From: an uncultured Candidatus Saccharibacteria bacterium
GTDB taxonomy: Bacteria; Patescibacteriota; Dojkabacteria; GCA-002793355
Length of the DNA stretch: 64,000 nt
Direction: 5' to 3'
NCBI GenBank assembly: GCA_964525295.1
Contig: CAZGEO010000001.1
Span: 73,671 to 137,670 of the forward strand
The position numbers and the translations under genes were made by a program. The notes beneath the pieces are model-generated. The model saw only the letters and a program-made list of their open reading frames with translations. It searched no databases and had not been told where the DNA came from. This document shows positions 43,943-48,061 of this stretch, in pieces (positions within the stretch are counted from its first letter, which is position 1; every line of letters begins with the position of its first letter).

Positions 43943-43948
43943 AAAGTA

Positions 43949-43977
43949 TTTACATTTTTTCACGAATTTACTATAAT
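43949..43977 (+). promoter_or_regulatory. sigma70-like promoter of the T-box leader
   Basis: TTTACA, 17-nt spacer, TATAAT. Confidence 0.55.
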
Positions 43978-43994
43978 ACGTATTTCTTGTCATT

Positions 43995-44240
43995 GATCGA
44001 GAAAGTAGAGAAGTCGTAACTTCTGCAAGGCGGGTAGTAGCAAGCCGCTAGCGAAAACTTCTTGAAACGCCCTCGTGAGACTAGAAGATCAAAGCATTAC
44101 GCCGAAAATCTTCGCAGGTTGTTCCTGCAAGAAAAGTAACTAAGAGTGCTCTGCAAAGAGAACTATGGTGGTACCGCGAAGAAAGCCTTCGTCCATAGGT
44201 AGGATAGTCTTACCTGCGAACGAAGGCTTTTTGTATAAAT
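43995..44240 (+). ncRNA. T-box riboswitch leader with intrinsic terminator
   Basis: Stem-I-like region with AGAGA at 44000-44100. T-box consensus GGTGGTACCGCG at 44167-44178. Terminator AAGCCTTCGT...ACGAAGGCTTTTT at 44182-44232. Confidence 0.6.
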
Positions 44241-44299
44241 AGCCCGCTCAAGATTTCCTACCTAAACAGACTTTTTCGCTCCACAATCGTTCAACTTAC

Positions 44300-44382
44300 A
44301 GAGAATTGGGTGGTACCGCGGGTTGCAGGAGTGAAAAGCAATTCGTCCCTTCTAATAAGTTTATTATGAGGAGGGAGCAAAT
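44300..44382 (+). promoter_or_regulatory. second T-box consensus copy with putative SD-sequestering hairpin
   Basis: GGGTGGTACCGCGGG at 44308-44322. The CGTCCCTTCT segment can pair with the RBS AGGAGGGAG 10 nt before the ATG at 44383. Confidence 0.4.
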
Positions 44383-45513
44383 ATGGCGCCACCATCATCT
44401 ATCGGAGTCTTTGAACATTTCAAAGATATGCCTCAGGTTACAGGAAATGAGCTTGAGGCATTGTCGAGTGAATTTTCACAGTCTGTTGAAAAAACACTTA
44501 ATTGCAATCAAAGCCGAGCTGAACTGTTTACCACGTTAAAAGAACTTAATCCGGCATTTGTTGAGAAAGCGTACTCTGAGAGCCCCAAAGCTAATTTGCT
44601 TGCTAATATCGTTTCTGCCGTTTACGCTCCATTACTTCACGCATATGCTCACAGCATTCTAGACAACATCGAGGCTGATACGCTTTCTCCATATATAATC
44701 GCACCGCCGAGAGACGCAATGCCAATTGTTGCAGCGATCAAGAGTCAACACAAAATTGGTGTAGAAGCAGGTAAATATTCGCAGCAAATAACTATTCTGC
44801 AACCTCCAATAAACAGAATTACCGCAGGGATAAAAATTGCGCAGAATACTCATGAACCGAAGCTTGACCCTCTACTACCGGAATTGCTACAACAAACCTT
44901 TCAAGATATTCCTCCTGAGATCGGATATACCGAAGTAGAAACCGGAATCTATGGAACAACTTCTCTGGTAACAGCATTGTTACTTGCGCAACAAGGAATT
45001 AACATAAAAATCGTTTCGACCAAATTCTACGCCTTGGGACCGAATCATAGCTTTACCCACGCAATATTGAGTAACGGCCACTCATGGATTGCTGAAAAAG
45101 CTGAAGACCAAGATTTGGTTAGTACCAAAAAGATTGCACATTTAATGTTACTTCTTGATAGTATGGAAGAATTTGGCATGGAAAAATTCTACAAATCAAT
45201 AGCAGCGCTATACAAAGATGCTAACGGAATAGTCAGACCACTCCTAGAAAAGGAATCTGCCGAAAATGTTGAGATTGCTAAAGCATGTCAACGAGCGATC
45301 AAAGCTACCGCTCAACTTTATACTAAAGAAGAAGCGCAAAAAGTTACGCTCAAAATCTTTGATAACATAGAAACACTTGCTTTACTTTCAAAAGAAAAGC
45401 AATGGCCAATTACGCTAACTCAACCCATCCCCCCAATGGAAAAACCTGAACAACTATTCGCAGACATTATTGCAGCAGATGTATTTTCACAACCAGACAA
45501 TTTAATTTTATAA
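44383..45513 (+). CDS. hypothetical protein (first gene after the T-box leader)
   Basis: Strong RBS GAGGAGGGAG. No motif recognised. Confidence 0.45.
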   Translation: MAPPSSIGVFEHFKDMPQVTGNELEALSSEFSQSVEKTLNCNQSRAELFTTLKELNPAFVEKAYSESPKANLLANIVSAVYAPLLHAYAHSILDNIEADTLSPYIIAPPRDAMPIVAAIKSQHKIGVEAGKYSQQITILQPPINRITAGIKIAQNTHEPKLDPLLPELLQQTFQDIPPEIGYTEVETGIYGTTSLVTALLLAQQGINIKIVSTKFYALGPNHSFTHAILSNGHSWIAEKAEDQDLVSTKKIAHLMLLLDSMEEFGMEKFYKSIAALYKDANGIVRPLLEKESAENVEIAKACQRAIKATAQLYTKEEAQKVTLKIFDNIETLALLSKEKQWPITLTQPIPPMEKPEQLFADIIAADVFSQPDNLIL

Positions 45514-45524
45514 TTACTACAAAT

Positions 45525-46325
45525 ATGCACAACAACTTTACCAAAATATTTCCCAAGAAAAATATCCTTATCGGGATGATTCACCTGCTTGCATCGCCTG
45601 GTTATCCTGAACACCAGGGATTTCAAAAAACGCTCGATTACGCGCTGAACGACCTTCATGCGTTACAACGAGCAGGTTTTGACGCTGTACTCGTAGAGAA
45701 TGACAACGATCAACCGCACATGATTACGCCGACACCAGAAGTAATCAGTTTTATGACATTAATTACTTCTGAAATCGTAAAGCGGGCAGAAATTCCAGTT
45801 GGAGTTGAAGTCCTCTTGAATGATCCACTCGCTTCAATGGGCATTGCTGCAAACACAGGGTGTAAATTTATAAGAACTGATTATTTTGTTGATAGAATGA
45901 GTAGAGATATTTATGGAGGAGAGATGAAAATCCAACCAGAGGAGATTGTCGCCTACAGAAAAAAGCTACAGGCGGAGGAAATACTCATTCTCGCTGATTT
46001 ACAGGTCAAGTACGCAACTCTACTTGAAGAAGGTAAATCTATTGGAACCTCCTTAAAGCAAGCCATTGAGAAAGAAGCGGATGCTGTAGTAATTACGGGC
46101 GATTTCACCGGGGAAAAGCCAAAACTCGATGATTTGATTACTGCACGAAATGAATCACAAGACTTTCCGATTCTTGTTGGAAGTGGTTTCGCAAGCGATA
46201 ATGCAAAACAACTGTTAGAATACGCAAACGGTGCGATTATCGGATCTTCAATTAAAATCGAGGGTTTTAATTCTCCGGTAAGTCTCGAAAAAGCGAGAAC
46301 CTTAGTTGAAATCGCAAAAAGTTAG
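45525..46325 (+). CDS. BtpA/SgcQ-family TIM-barrel protein
   Basis: N-terminal GMIHLLASPGYP resembles the BtpA signature. Confidence 0.5.
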   Translation: MHNNFTKIFPKKNILIGMIHLLASPGYPEHQGFQKTLDYALNDLHALQRAGFDAVLVENDNDQPHMITPTPEVISFMTLITSEIVKRAEIPVGVEVLLNDPLASMGIAANTGCKFIRTDYFVDRMSRDIYGGEMKIQPEEIVAYRKKLQAEEILILADLQVKYATLLEEGKSIGTSLKQAIEKEADAVVITGDFTGEKPKLDDLITARNESQDFPILVGSGFASDNAKQLLEYANGAIIGSSIKIEGFNSPVSLEKARTLVEIAKS

Positions 46326-46345
46326 TTAATTCAGTATAATCTCGT

Positions 46346-48061
46346 ATGAAATCATTATTACAAGCAGCACTTAAAAAAGTTATCGAAGAATTGTACAGCA
46401 TTACCGACGTTACACCTTCAATTGACTTTACAAATGATTTGAAATTCGGTGACTTCACAACAAATATCGCGATGGTAATAACCAAGACAGTAAAAAAAGC
46501 ACCAAATGTCATAGCTTTAGAAATATCACAGAAATTATCTAACGAGGCGCTACAAGATGCTATTCCAGCAAAGATTCAAACCATTACCCCTATTGGTGGA
46601 TTTATAAACTTTACCCTTTCAACCAATCTACTTTGGGACTTAATAATCGGTATTAATAGAAATTACGGCACAACAACTGTCAAACAAGTCGAGCGTATTA
46701 TGGTGGAATACGGTCAGCCAAACACTCACAAACTACCGCACATTGGGCACCTTTTTTCATATATCGTTGGTGACTCTTTAGCTCGAATAAAAGAAACTCA
46801 AGGCCACAGCGTTATGAGGGCAAATTACCAAGGAGATGTTGGACCTCACGTTGCAAAAGCGATTTATGGCTTTATTCAGATTGGGCAAATTGATCCGAAA
46901 AGCCCTGAAGAAAGGGTTCGATTGTTACAAAAATGTTATCAAGAAGGTAGCAAGGCATACGAGGAAGATCCAATTGCCAAAGAAACCATCGATGATATTA
47001 ATAAAAAGATCTATACTGAAGATCCAGAAATTATCCAAATTTGGAAAGAAACCAGACAATGGTCAGTTGATTATTATGCGATGTTTGAACAAAAACTAGG
47101 TGTTCAACAAACTTTTCACTACTTCGAAAAGGATACTTTCAAAACAGGCAAACAAATTGTTGAAGAAAACATAGGGAAAATTTTTGAAAAGAGTGAGGGA
47201 GCAATTATCTTCCCAGGGAAAAAGTTTGGATATCACGACAGAGTTTTCTTAACAAAAAACAATACTCCAACTTACGAGGCAAAAGATGTTGGATTAAATA
47301 TTCAAAAATTCCAAGATTGGGAATATGATCAAAATATTATCACTACTGCTAGTGAGCAAAATGCTTATTTCGACGTTGTTATCAAAGCAATAGAGCAGGT
47401 TGCACCACACCTCGAAGGGAAAGTAAAACATATTGGTTTCGGTATGATTTCGCTTTCAACAGGAAAAATGAGCTCTCGAACTGGGCAAATACTTAGTGCA
47501 ATCGACCTAATCGATGCAGTTCAGGGTAGAGTAGAAGAAATTATGAAATCTCGAGAAGGATTAAGTGAACAAGAAAGAGAGGCAATCATTGAAAAAGTCG
47601 CTATGGCAGCGATCAAATTCGCCTTCTTAAAACAAAATATTCTGCAAAATATGAAATTTGATATCGAAGAATCTGTTTCTTTCGAAGGACGATCTGGCCC
47701 ATATTTGCAGTACACTTATGCACGAATCAATAGTATTCTAAGACAAAATACCTCAACTACATCGGCCACTGCTACCGATGAGCAATTCTTACAAACTGAG
47801 CCAGAAATTTCGCTGATGCGCTGGATCTACCGTTTTCCTCATATGGTAAGTGAGGCGAGTACTCAAAATGCACCACATCTTGTTGCTGAATACACATACC
47901 AATTAGCCCAATACTTCAACACTTTCTATACTTCATGTCCAATAAATACAGCTAAAGATGAAGAAACTAAACGTGCAAGAAAGACTTTGGCCGAAAAGAC
48001 GGCTCAAGTTATAAAAAATGGTTTGGAATTGCTGGGAATTGAAACTGTCGAGAAGATGTAA
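46346..48061 (+). CDS. argS: arginyl-tRNA synthetase
   Basis: HIGH motif PHIGHLFSYIVGD, C-terminal GKMSSRTGQ (ArgS variant of KMSKS), DALR-like anticodon-binding C-terminus. 571 aa. Confidence 0.85.
   Translation: MKSLLQAALKKVIEELYSITDVTPSIDFTNDLKFGDFTTNIAMVITKTVKKAPNVIALEISQKLSNEALQDAIPAKIQTITPIGGFINFTLSTNLLWDLIIGINRNYGTTTVKQVERIMVEYGQPNTHKLPHIGHLFSYIVGDSLARIKETQGHSVMRANYQGDVGPHVAKAIYGFIQIGQIDPKSPEERVRLLQKCYQEGSKAYEEDPIAKETIDDINKKIYTEDPEIIQIWKETRQWSVDYYAMFEQKLGVQQTFHYFEKDTFKTGKQIVEENIGKIFEKSEGAIIFPGKKFGYHDRVFLTKNNTPTYEAKDVGLNIQKFQDWEYDQNIITTASEQNAYFDVVIKAIEQVAPHLEGKVKHIGFGMISLSTGKMSSRTGQILSAIDLIDAVQGRVEEIMKSREGLSEQEREAIIEKVAMAAIKFAFLKQNILQNMKFDIEESVSFEGRSGPYLQYTYARINSILRQNTSTTSATATDEQFLQTEPEISLMRWIYRFPHMVSEASTQNAPHLVAEYTYQLAQYFNTFYTSCPINTAKDEETKRARKTLAEKTAQVIKNGLELLGIETVEKM

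What the first reader, a model, noticed from the sequence alone, without database searches (positions are those of the whole stretch)
43949..44382. T-box leader with two copies of the T-box consensus upstream of a hypothetical-BtpA-argS operon
The leader has these elements in order:
- Promoter TTTACA-17-TATAAT.
- An AGAGA-containing stem-I-like region (44000-44100).
- GGTGGTACCGCG (44167-44178), followed by a canonical terminator.
- Only ~65 nt later, a second GGGTGGTACCGCGGG (44308-44322). A pyrimidine tract CGTCCCTTCT after it can pair with the Shine-Dalgarno AGGAGGGAG.

The ~65-nt gap is too short for a second stem I. One stem I may therefore serve two antiterminator/antisequestrator modules, giving both transcriptional and translational control. 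Alternatively the second box is a relic.

The first regulated ORF (376 aa) has no recognisable function. argS lies two genes downstream. Stem I contains AGA-A and CGU-G as possible Arg specifiers.
Basis: partly seen in the sequence, partly recalled or inferred. Interest (0 to 1): 0.6.

Follow-up and report, generated by a model that had tools for sequence, protein, structure and literature searches.

The report
Arginine T-box leader with two discriminators
This is a tRNA-sensing RNA leader for an arginyl-tRNA synthetase operon in a candidate-phyla bacterium; it has one codon-reading arm but two conserved tRNA-end-sensing modules, the first coupled to a transcription terminator and the second to a helix that hides the ribosome-binding site, an arrangement whose mode of action is not yet understood.

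Summary
Window 43949-44382 is a promoter followed by an Arg-specific T-box leader for a hyp376-BtpA-argS operon, in a Patescibacteria (CPR) genome.

- **Copy 1.** It has a long Stem I with specifier CGC (44068-70), a discriminator (44163-98) and a strong terminator (44182-44232). Covariation across 7 lineages supports the fold.
- **Copy 2.** At 44273-44349 it is a complete second discriminator domain (Stem III, A1, UGGUACC bulge, A2). Its 3' strand pairs with the Shine-Dalgarno sequence (44346-53 with 44369-76). It has no decoding domain of its own.
- **Conservation.** Copy 2 is present in 4 independent assemblies (3 lineages, down to about 50% protein identity). It shows compensatory changes, and its core is 91-100% identical while the neighbouring spacer is about 60%. 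A relic is therefore unlikely.
- **Origin.** The leader looks composite. Sister genomes have argS behind a single copy-1-type leader. Other genomes have hyp376-BtpA behind a single copy-2-type leader.
The specifier is CGC, not AGA or CGU. The gap is 75 nt, not about 65. "Too short for a Stem I" does not hold by itself.
- **Unresolved.** How a discriminator without its own Stem I senses tRNA is unknown. A shared Stem I is my preferred inference. L003 keeps copy 1 without any terminator, and no simple model explains that.

I rate this a new variant of a known kind.

The parts
43949..43977 (+). Promoter: -35 TTTACA, 17-nt spacer, -10 TATAAT
   Evidence: It matches 11 of 12 consensus positions. 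The -10 ATAAT is invariant in 7 lineages.
43998..44075 (+). Stem I, the decoding domain. The base helix is CGAG 43998-44001 with CUCG 44072-75. The specifier CGC is at 44068-70. The conserved AGUA and GAA loop elements are present.
   Evidence: The Rfam alignment covers it. The base helix covaries (CGAG/CUCG, UAAG/CUUA, CGGG/CCCG), and the specifier column reads CGC in six lineages and CGA in one.
44084..44128 (+). Stem II-like hairpin (44084-89 with 44108-13) and the following hairpin GCAGG/CCUGC (44114-28)
   Evidence: The Stem II-like hairpin is 100% paired with 4 pairs changed on both sides. The following hairpin is 91% paired with 2 such pairs.
44149..44198 (+). Discriminator 1. It comprises Stem III-1 (44149-60), A1 (44163-68 with 44193-98), the T-box bulge UGGUACC (44169-75) and A2 (44176-81 with 44187-92).
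   Evidence: It is matched by Rfam, R1 at 70.3 bits and R2 at 27.3 bits. Stem III and A2 covary.
44182..44232 (+). Intrinsic terminator that overlaps the 3' strands of A2 and A1 of copy 1. The arms are 44182-44204 and 44208-44230, followed by a U-run at 44228-32.
   Evidence: It folds at -32 kcal/mol with z = -5.1. Forcing the antiterminator costs +14.1 kcal/mol. It is present in L001 and L002 and absent in L003.
44196..44264 (+). P-x, an alternative long-range helix. UAGGUAGGA (44196-204) pairs with UCCUACCUA (44256-64).
   Evidence: The window shows 9 of 9 pairs. L003 is compensated (AGGGGAAGU/ACUUCUCCU, 9 of 9) and L002 has 7 bp. It is positionally equivalent to the CAUAGGU/ACCUAUG start-codon sequestrator of the single argS leaders.
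44273..44349 (+). Discriminator 2, with no decoding domain of its own. It comprises Stem III-2 (44273-77 with 44301-05), A1 GGG/CCC (44308-10 with 44347-49), the bulge UGGUACC (44311-17) and A2 (44318-26 with 44338-46).
   Evidence: The helices are verified by coordinates, and A2 is compensated across lineages. The independent model R2 gives a full-length match at 22.0 bits. The core is 100% identical to L002 and 91% to L003, against about 60% for the spacer.
44346..44376 (+). SD sequestrator. UCCCUUCU (44346-53) pairs with AGGAGGGA (44369-76), and an apical AAUAA/UUAUU helix closes it.
   Evidence: It is part of the minimum-energy fold in the window, L002 and L003. Compensated differences are seen: U-A to A-U in L002, and a different extension in L003. 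The same design occurs in the single leader of L020.
44309..44393 (+). Predicted OFF-state helix. The 5' half of T-box 2, GGUGGU (44309-14), pairs with codons 2-4, GCCACC (44388-93).
   Evidence: It appears in the minimum-energy fold of all three double lineages and is 6 of 6 paired in each. It cannot be separated from conservation of the Pro-Pro codons.
44383..48061 (+). The regulated operon: hyp376 (44383-45513), BtpA-family protein (45525-46325) and arginyl-tRNA synthetase (46346-48061)
   Evidence: ORFs are and Pfam assignments. The same gene order is found in L001 and L003.
804..878 (+). tRNA-Arg(GCG), the likely ligand. Its anticodon is complementary to CGC. The discriminator A73 is complementary to the U of UGGU in both T-boxes. 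CCA is not encoded.

Best explanation
**Shown**
- The leader is an Arg-specific T-box riboswitch with one decoding domain: a long Stem I presenting CGC to tRNA-Arg(GCG).
- It has two complete discriminator domains in series. Discriminator 1 competes with an intrinsic terminator. Discriminator 2 competes with a helix that pairs its own 3' strand with the Shine-Dalgarno sequence of hyp376.
- Both discriminators carry UGGU, which matches the A73-CCA end of the tRNA.
- Both are conserved with compensatory changes.

**Inferred mechanism**
- Expression needs uncharged tRNA-Arg twice. The first time is during transcription, where the tRNA 3' end captured by discriminator 1 prevents termination. The second is on the finished mRNA, where a tRNA 3' end captured by discriminator 2 holds CCC in helix A1 so that the SD is free.
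- Discriminator 2 has no specifier of its own. The most economical reading is that the tRNA anchored on the single Stem I supplies the 3' end to both.
- In that reading the terminator hairpin, once it forms behind the polymerase, releases the tRNA end from discriminator 1. The conserved P-x helix would keep discriminator 2 next to discriminator 1.

**Inferred origin**
- A hyp376-BtpA cassette carrying the 3' half of its own translational T-box leader joined behind the resident argS T-box leader. The reverse, deletion of the cassette in sister lineages, is also possible.
For: - **T-box identity.** Rfam RF00230 scores 69.2 bits at E = 6e-15. On 7 lineages the copy-1 fold is 95.8% paired with 16 pairs changed on both sides. 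None of 500 shuffles reaches this, and slid controls give 29-44% paired.
- **Arg specificity.** The specifier column reads CGC or CGA in all lineages, including hairpin-loop versions. tRNA-Arg(GCG) with A73 is encoded in the window. argS is in the operon.
- **Copy 2 is a genuine discriminator.** An independent model gives a full-length match at 22-27 bits, and these are the only two hits in the window. Its helices, including Stem III-2, are verified and compensated. The core is 91-100% identical against about 60% for the spacer.
- **Copy 2 behaves like a real switch.** Forcing the antisequestrator costs +2.8, +11.3 and +8.3 kcal/mol in the three lineages. The bona fide single translational leader L020 costs +6.6.
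- **No second decoding domain.** No second Rfam hit was found. The 75-nt spacer is filled by the P-x arm and Stem III-2.
- **Stem I length tracks the architecture.** A long Stem I is kept only in the double leaders. The four single translational sister leaders have collapsed it to a hairpin.
- **Composite origin.** Synteny and tblastn results are. The A1 types differ: CUAUGG/CCAUAG in argS leaders and GGG/CCC in hyp376 leaders.
Against: - There are no experimental data. Only three independent lineages carry the double form.
- L003 has no terminator after discriminator 1, and its antiterminator fold is nearly unopposed (+2.4 kcal/mol). There, the tRNA end would not be released from discriminator 1, and copy 1 has no obvious output. 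Yet copy 1 is as conserved as elsewhere.
- In the window, P-x would compete with the terminator rather than help it form.
- No known T-box structure shows a discriminator working 140 nt away from the decoding domain.
- The distance between the two T-boxes is not conserved (142, 155 and 109 nt).
Confidence: 0.45

Rival explanations
1. Discriminator 2 is an autonomous sensor of the acceptor end. It binds the free NCCA end of any uncharged tRNA with A73, from the bulk pool, without help from a specifier. Translation of hyp376 would then respond to general or Arg-dominated tRNA deacylation, independently of the upstream Stem I.
For: - A complete, conserved discriminator lacks any decoding domain.
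- The distance to Stem I varies.
- It explains L003, where discriminator 1 can keep its own tRNA.
- From memory, not checked here: isolated antiterminator model RNAs bind acceptor-end mimics in vitro with discriminator-base specificity (work from the Hines laboratory).
Against: - Affinity without anticodon contacts is expected to be weak. The review read stresses that multivalent binding is needed.
- It does not explain why a long Stem I is retained only in the double leaders.
- Amino-acid specificity would be lost for a cassette that is Arg-controlled everywhere else.
Confidence: 0.2
2. Copy 2 is an evolutionary left-over that no longer senses tRNA. The SD helix acts as a constitutive or otherwise modulated damper of translation. 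The T-box core would be kept for RNA-RNA pairings, either with codons 2-4 or with copy 1.
For: - The composite origin implies that a Stem I was lost.
- GGUGGU pairs with codons 2-4 in every minimum-energy fold.
- The core GUGGUACC(A/G)C is self-complementary, so copy 1 and copy 2 can form a 10-bp duplex.
Against: - The whole 7-nt bulge is invariant, including ACC, which those pairings do not need. A1, A2 and Stem III-2 are all maintained with compensated changes in three lineages, while the spacer has drifted.
- A permanently closed SD helix would be selected against. A neutral one would decay.
Confidence: 0.15
3. RNA relay. Only discriminator 1 binds tRNA. Its state is passed to discriminator 2 through mutually exclusive RNA pairings: P-x, the T-box 1:T-box 2 palindrome, or spacer segments complementary to the Stem III-1 and T-box 1 region.
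For: - In all three lineages the spacer's best duplex partner is the Stem III-1 and T-box 1 region. This is better than 93-99% of shuffles.
- P-x is compensated across lineages.
- It would give copy 1 an output in L003.
Against: - Much of that complementarity follows trivially from the duplication, because Stem III-2 resembles Stem III-1.
- Without a ligand, the antisequestrator is 3-11 kcal/mol less stable than the SD helix. Release alone would therefore not open the SD.
- I found no consistent logic. A freed P-x 3' arm would pair with T-box 2 and close it.
Confidence: 0.1
4. It is an ordinary complete tandem T-box whose second specifier is cryptic, for example CGN or AGA in the spacer.
For: UCG(C/U/A) and AGAC recur in the spacers of all three lineages.
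Against: - Any CGN is an Arg codon, and short motifs are expected by chance.
- The UCGC lies at the junction of the Stem III-2 stem and loop, directly next to A1. That is too close to reach an anticodon.
- There is no room for Stem II and the pseudoknot. Related ultrashort leaders have about 100 nt between specifier and T-box.
- No second Rfam match was found.
Confidence: 0.05

Closest known systems
Canonical transcriptional T-box leaders (Rfam RF00230; for example Bacillus tyrS and glyQS)
   Same: Copy 1 has the following:
- a long Stem I with a specifier one nucleotide before the base helix;
- Stem III;
- the UGGNACC bulge between A1 and A2;
- a terminator that overlaps the 3' strands.
   Different: - It scores below the Rfam gathering threshold (69 against 93 bits).
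- CUGCAAG stands where the AGAGA bulge is expected.
- In the window lineage a C rather than a purine follows the codon.
- The host is a Patescibacteria-type genome.
- A second discriminator follows the terminator.
Translational T-boxes (actinobacterial ileS type, SD sequestration)
   Same: In copy 2 the 3' strand of the discriminator acts as the anti-SD. The energy balance between antisequestrator and sequestrator is comparable to that of a related single translational leader (L020).
   Different: Copy 2 has no Stem I, Stem II or pseudoknot of its own. It sits downstream of another complete T-box and its terminator.
Complete tandem T-boxes (for example trp operons, thrS and thrZ in Bacillota)
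   Same: There are two T-box sequences in one leader, and both must presumably be satisfied for expression.
   Different: - Known tandems repeat the whole unit (sensor plus terminator) and are read as needing two tRNAs.
- Here only the discriminator is repeated.
- The two outputs act at different levels, transcription and translation.
'Partially tandem T-boxes' mentioned in the 2020 review PMC7583486
   Same: This is probably the same broad category. The review states that their modes of action remain unknown.
   Different: The library I could search held no description of which part is duplicated or of any dual-level output. The primary comparative paper was not available.

Membership tests
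T-box leader (RF00230), copy 1 | Match to the Rfam covariance model at its gathering score | tested here: not met
   The match scores 69.2 bits against a gathering score of 93. E is 6e-15 on the leader, and the match is full-length over model positions 1-219. Relatives score 30-83 bits.
T-box leader (RF00230), copy 1 | Stem I presenting a codon for the amino acid of the regulated gene | tested here: met
   CGC or CGA occupies a fixed position next to a covarying base helix in 7 lineages. argS is in the operon.
T-box leader (RF00230), copy 1 | T-box bulge UGGN complementary to the tRNA NCCA end | tested here: met
   The bulge reads UGGU, and tRNA-Arg(GCG) in the window has A73.
T-box leader (RF00230), copy 1 | Mutually exclusive antiterminator and terminator | tested here: met
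   The terminator arm 44182-44204 contains the 3' strands of A2 and A1. The cost of the antiterminator is +14.1 kcal/mol. This is not met in L003.
T-box leader, either copy | Induction by uncharged cognate tRNA | not testable with these tools
   This needs in vitro transcription, toeprinting or reporter assays.
T-box discriminator domain, copy 2 | Stem III plus A1, a 7-nt bulge and A2, recognised by a model not trained on it | tested here: met
   R2 was built from six single leaders. It matches 44303-44352 full-length at 22.0 bits and E = 4e-3 over 176 kb, and it matches copy 2 of L003 at 27.0 bits. The helices are verified. A model trained on copy-1-type sequences gives only a local match of 9.6 bits.
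Translational T-box, copy 2 | The anti-SD lies in the discriminator 3' strand and pairs with the SD | tested here: met
   The window shows 8 of 8 pairs. The pairing is compensated in L002 and L003, and it is part of the minimum-energy fold in each.
Translational T-box, copy 2 | Own decoding domain (a specifier in Stem I, with Stem II and pseudoknot in short forms) | tested here: not met
   There is no second Rfam match. The 75-nt spacer is occupied by the P-x arm and Stem III-2, and the spacer is only about 60% conserved.
Complete tandem T-box | Each unit has its own Stem I and its own terminator | tested here: not met
   There is one Stem I. The second unit ends in an SD helix with no U-run.

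The most novel reading that the evidence does not exclude
A single tRNA held by one Stem I is read by two discriminators in succession. The same leader would then check aminoacylation once during transcription and again on the finished mRNA. This would show that a T-box discriminator can work at long range from the decoding domain. The lineage without a terminator (L003) hints that the two-discriminator unit has a function beyond simple attenuation.
Probability: 0.3. Interest if true: 0.78.

Novelty: new variant of a known kind. Interest (0 to 1): 0.62.

Why it matters
T-box riboswitches are the model case of one structured RNA reading another, and every mechanistic model pairs one decoding domain with one discriminator. 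A recent review lists partially tandem T-boxes as an open question.

This locus offers a conserved natural example with clear outputs at two levels. It also comes with a set of natural variants that can be compared directly:
- double discriminator with terminator (window, L001, L002);
- double discriminator without terminator (L003);
- single leader with an ultrashort Stem I and start-codon occlusion (L022, L023, L025, L026);
- single hyp376-type leader with a long Stem I and SD occlusion (L020).

It also places divergent T-boxes that fall below the Rfam threshold in candidate-phyla bacteria. And it ties an uncharacterised protein pair (hyp376 and BtpA) to arginine and tRNA-Arg biology.

Tried and rejected
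- **Rfam at gathering threshold.** It gave no T-box. Only the permissive scan did.
- **A second specifier co-varying with Stem I.** The aligned tCGC (window) and tCGA (L003) looked promising. I rejected it because any CGN is an Arg codon, L002 has CGU there, and the motif is the junction of the Stem III-2 stem and loop, homologous to CU|GCAA of Stem III-1.
- **Constant spacing of 43-45 nt from P-x to copy 2.** Partly a coincidence. The window has a short linker and a 23-nt Stem III-2 loop, whereas L002 and L003 have long linkers and short loops.
- **NCCA-like motifs in the spacer as a cis mimic of the tRNA end.** The motifs are UCCA, GCCA and ACCA. The discriminator position varies, and CCA is expected by chance.
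- **An internal promoter for copy 2.** None was found in the window or L003. The TATAAA after the terminator is not kept in L001 or L002.
- **The copy-1-trained model R1.** It did not recover the window's copy 2 beyond a local hit.
- **More double-leader lineages.** Genome and metagenome scans, plus look-ups of ArgRS relatives, gave none beyond L001-L003.
- **Literature.** The primary comparative T-box papers were not held. No paper in the library links T-boxes with Patescibacteria or CPR.

Full report
**1. What is in the sequence**

The region 43943-44382 lies between a 198-aa ORF and three tightly spaced + strand genes:
- a 376-aa protein with no family match (hyp376, 44383-45513);
- a BtpA-family protein (45525-46325);
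- arginyl-tRNA synthetase (46346-48061).

The intergenic gaps are 11 and 20 nt. No + strand terminator-like site lies between the genes.

The promoter TTTACA-17-TATAAT is at 43949-77. The 12-mer GGTGGTACCGCG occurs twice, at 44167-78 and 44309-20. It is the only direct repeat family in the leader.

After the first copy comes a hairpin with 23-nt arms followed by UUUUU. It folds at -32 kcal/mol with z = -5.1. After the second copy, UCCCUUCU (44346-53) pairs perfectly with the Shine-Dalgarno sequence AGGAGGGA (44369-76). The one correction is that the gap from the terminator to the second box is 75 nt.

**2. It is a T-box, and it is arginine-specific**

The Rfam T-box model misses the leader at its gathering score. 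On the leader alone it gives a full-length match at 43984-44199 with 69.2 bits and E = 6e-15. Relatives score 30-83 bits. This group of T-boxes is therefore divergent and under-detected.

I collected orthologous leaders in two ways. The first was through hyp376 homologues. The second was through ArgRS homologues.

Seven lineages carry a copy-1-type leader. On their alignment, I tested six helices: the Stem I base, the Stem II-like hairpin, the following hairpin, Stem III, A1 and A2. Together they are 95.8% paired. Sixteen pairs change on both sides. None of 500 shuffles reaches this, and slid controls give 29-44% paired.

The codon that sits one nucleotide before the Stem I base helix is CGC in six lineages and CGA in L003. 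In four sister lineages Stem I has collapsed to a hairpin whose loop is (A/C)UCGCA, UCGCG or CCGCA. In the window the specifier is CGC at 44068-70.

The window encodes tRNA-Arg with anticodon GCG. Its discriminator base is A73, and CCA is not encoded. That fits both CGC and the UGGU of both T-boxes.

**3. The second copy is a complete discriminator domain, is conserved, and has no decoding domain**

The duplicated unit is larger than the 12-mer. Copy 2 has these parts:
- Stem III-2: UUUUC 44273-77 with GAGAA 44301-05, which parallels CUCU-GCAA-AGAG of copy 1;
- helix A1: GGG with CCC;
- the 7-nt bulge UGGUACC;
- helix A2: 9 bp.

A2 and the SD helix show compensated differences between lineages. 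At the sixth A2 pair the window has U-A, L003 has C-G and L020 has A-U. In the SD helix, U-A in the window becomes A-U in L002. L003 has a differently built extension.

The 23-nt core is 100% identical to L002 and 91% to L003. UUCGUCCCU is 100% identical in both. By contrast, the spacer just upstream is about 60% identical and the A2 loop 26-68%.

I built an antiterminator covariance model from six single leaders of other loci, with no double-leader sequence included. In the whole window it finds exactly two full-length matches, copy 1 at 27.3 bits and copy 2 at 22.0 bits. It also finds both copies in L001, L002 and L003. A model trained on copy-1-type sequences gives only a local match to copy 2, because the A1 helix and the loops differ.

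No second Stem I exists. There is no second Rfam match, and the 75-nt spacer is occupied by the P-x arm and Stem III-2. In the related ultrashort leaders, about 100 nt of Stem II and pseudoknot still separate the specifier from the T-box.

Forcing the antisequestrator costs +2.8 kcal/mol in the window, +11.3 in L002 and +8.3 in L003. The bona fide single translational leader L020 costs +6.6. Copy 2 therefore has the energy balance of a working switch.

**4. Origin**

Two kinds of single leader exist in relatives.
- **argS-type.** In genomes syntenic with the window (TsaD, leader, argS, def) that lack hyp376 and BtpA, argS has a leader with the copy-1-type discriminator (A1 is CUAUGG/CCAUAG). 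The strand CAUAGGU then pairs with ACCUAUG, which is the start codon region. There is no terminator (L022, L023, L025, L026).
- **hyp376-type.** Elsewhere hyp376-BtpA, always found as a pair, has its own Arg T-box with the copy-2-type discriminator (A1 is GGG/CCC). L020 has a long Stem I, CGC and SD sequestration. L018, L008, L009, L011 and L019 have terminators.

The window leader has the first kind followed by the 3' half of the second kind. The P-x helix is UAGGUAGGA with UCCUACCUA in the window, compensated to AGGGGAAGU with ACUUCUCCU in L003. It occupies the position of the start-codon sequestrator in the argS-type leaders.

The double leader is therefore most simply a fusion. Identity values do not resolve whether the cassette was inserted here or deleted in the sister lineages: TsaD is 72-76% and ArgRS 59-64% identical to the window for all of them.

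**5. Mechanism**

*Shown.* There are two expression platforms, a terminator and an SD helix. Each competes with a T-box discriminator that matches the tRNA-Arg 3' end. There is one decoding domain.

*Inferred.* Uncharged tRNA-Arg is needed at both steps. My preferred reading is that the tRNA anchored on Stem I serves both discriminators. Three points support it:
- The long Stem I is retained only in the double leaders.
- P-x joins the two discriminators.
- In the window the very stable terminator can displace discriminator 1 once the polymerase has passed.

The main difficulty is L003. It has no terminator, and its discriminator 1 is nearly unopposed (+2.4 kcal/mol). Yet copy 1 is fully conserved there. 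Copy 1 must therefore contribute something to the control of hyp376 translation that I cannot specify.

The rival readings are:
- an autonomous acceptor-end sensor;
- a relay through alternative RNA pairings. The spacer's best partner is the Stem III-1 and T-box 1 region, but this largely follows from the duplication;
- a non-sensing relic, which the conservation pattern makes unlikely;
- a cryptic second specifier, for which I found no support.

**6. Comparison with what is known**

Complete tandem T-boxes are well documented in Bacillota. Translational T-boxes with short Stem I are known in Actinobacteria. [quoted passage not shown]

The searchable library holds no description of a leader with one decoding domain and two discriminators acting at two levels. 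It also holds no paper linking T-boxes with Patescibacteria. The primary comparative-genomics papers were not available, so an earlier mention cannot be excluded.

**Verdict.** This is a new variant of a known kind. It is real and conserved, and its mechanism is open.

Noticed in passing
L008 1198-1655; L004 3636-3960; L012 3278-3641: The hyp376-BtpA cassette often sits directly behind clusters of tRNA-Arg genes. In L008, and by the R2 hit also in L004, an Arg T-box and its terminator lie upstream of tRNA-Arg(UCU) and tRNA-Arg(UCG), followed by hyp376. A T-box would then control tRNA genes of its own ligand family.
   Followed up: partly
window 44383-46325 and homologues in L003-L020: hyp376 and BtpA are always adjacent. 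They are under an Arg T-box even where argS is not nearby, which suggests an arginine- or tRNA-Arg-related function. hyp376 has no family match and folds confidently (pLDDT 92). Its only similarity is weak, to PRPP-type ribofuranosyltransferase domains of capsule polymerases.
   Followed up: partly
L008 1211-1446; L009 1-190; L011 3640-3835; L019 3706-3915: These T-boxes have an ultrashort Stem I, a hairpin with the 7-nt loop GUCGCGA. Even so, they end in clear intrinsic terminators. That goes against the generalisation that transcriptional T-boxes need a long Stem I.
   Followed up: no
L022 4960-5003; L023 4962-5003; L025 3968-4003; L026 3962-4003: In the single argS leaders the 3' strand of the discriminator pairs with the start codon region itself (CAUAGGU with ACCUAUG). 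No obvious Shine-Dalgarno sequence is nearby.
   Followed up: partly
window 804-878; L012 3568-3641: The tRNA-Arg here carries a GCG anticodon rather than the usual bacterial ACG (inosine) type. This fits the strong preference for the CGC specifier.
   Followed up: no
window 44386-44394 (also L002 1734-1741, L003 6004-6011): Codons 2-4 are GCG/GCA/UCG-CCA-CCA, and the synonymous positions are identical in all three lineages. They are complementary to GGUGGU of T-box 2. They also contain ACCA, the same sequence as a tRNA 3' end.
   Followed up: partly
window 44168-44177 and 44310-44319; L003 5832-41 and 5941-50: The T-box core GUGGUACC(A/G)C is self-complementary, so the two copies can form a 10-bp duplex with each other. 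The duplex is perfect in L003. Both copies switch together from GCG to ACG between the window and L003.
   Followed up: partly
window 45486-45514: A strong promoter-like site (TTCACA-17-TATAAT, 11 of 12) lies at the 3' end of hyp376, just before BtpA. It could give BtpA-argS some expression independent of the T-box.
   Followed up: no
ArgRS homologues P0070-P0093: Many Dojkabacteria-type ArgRS proteins are about 850-970 aa and carry an extra PF03483 domain fused to ArgRS. PF03483 is the B3/B4 tRNA-binding domain known from PheRS beta.
   Followed up: no
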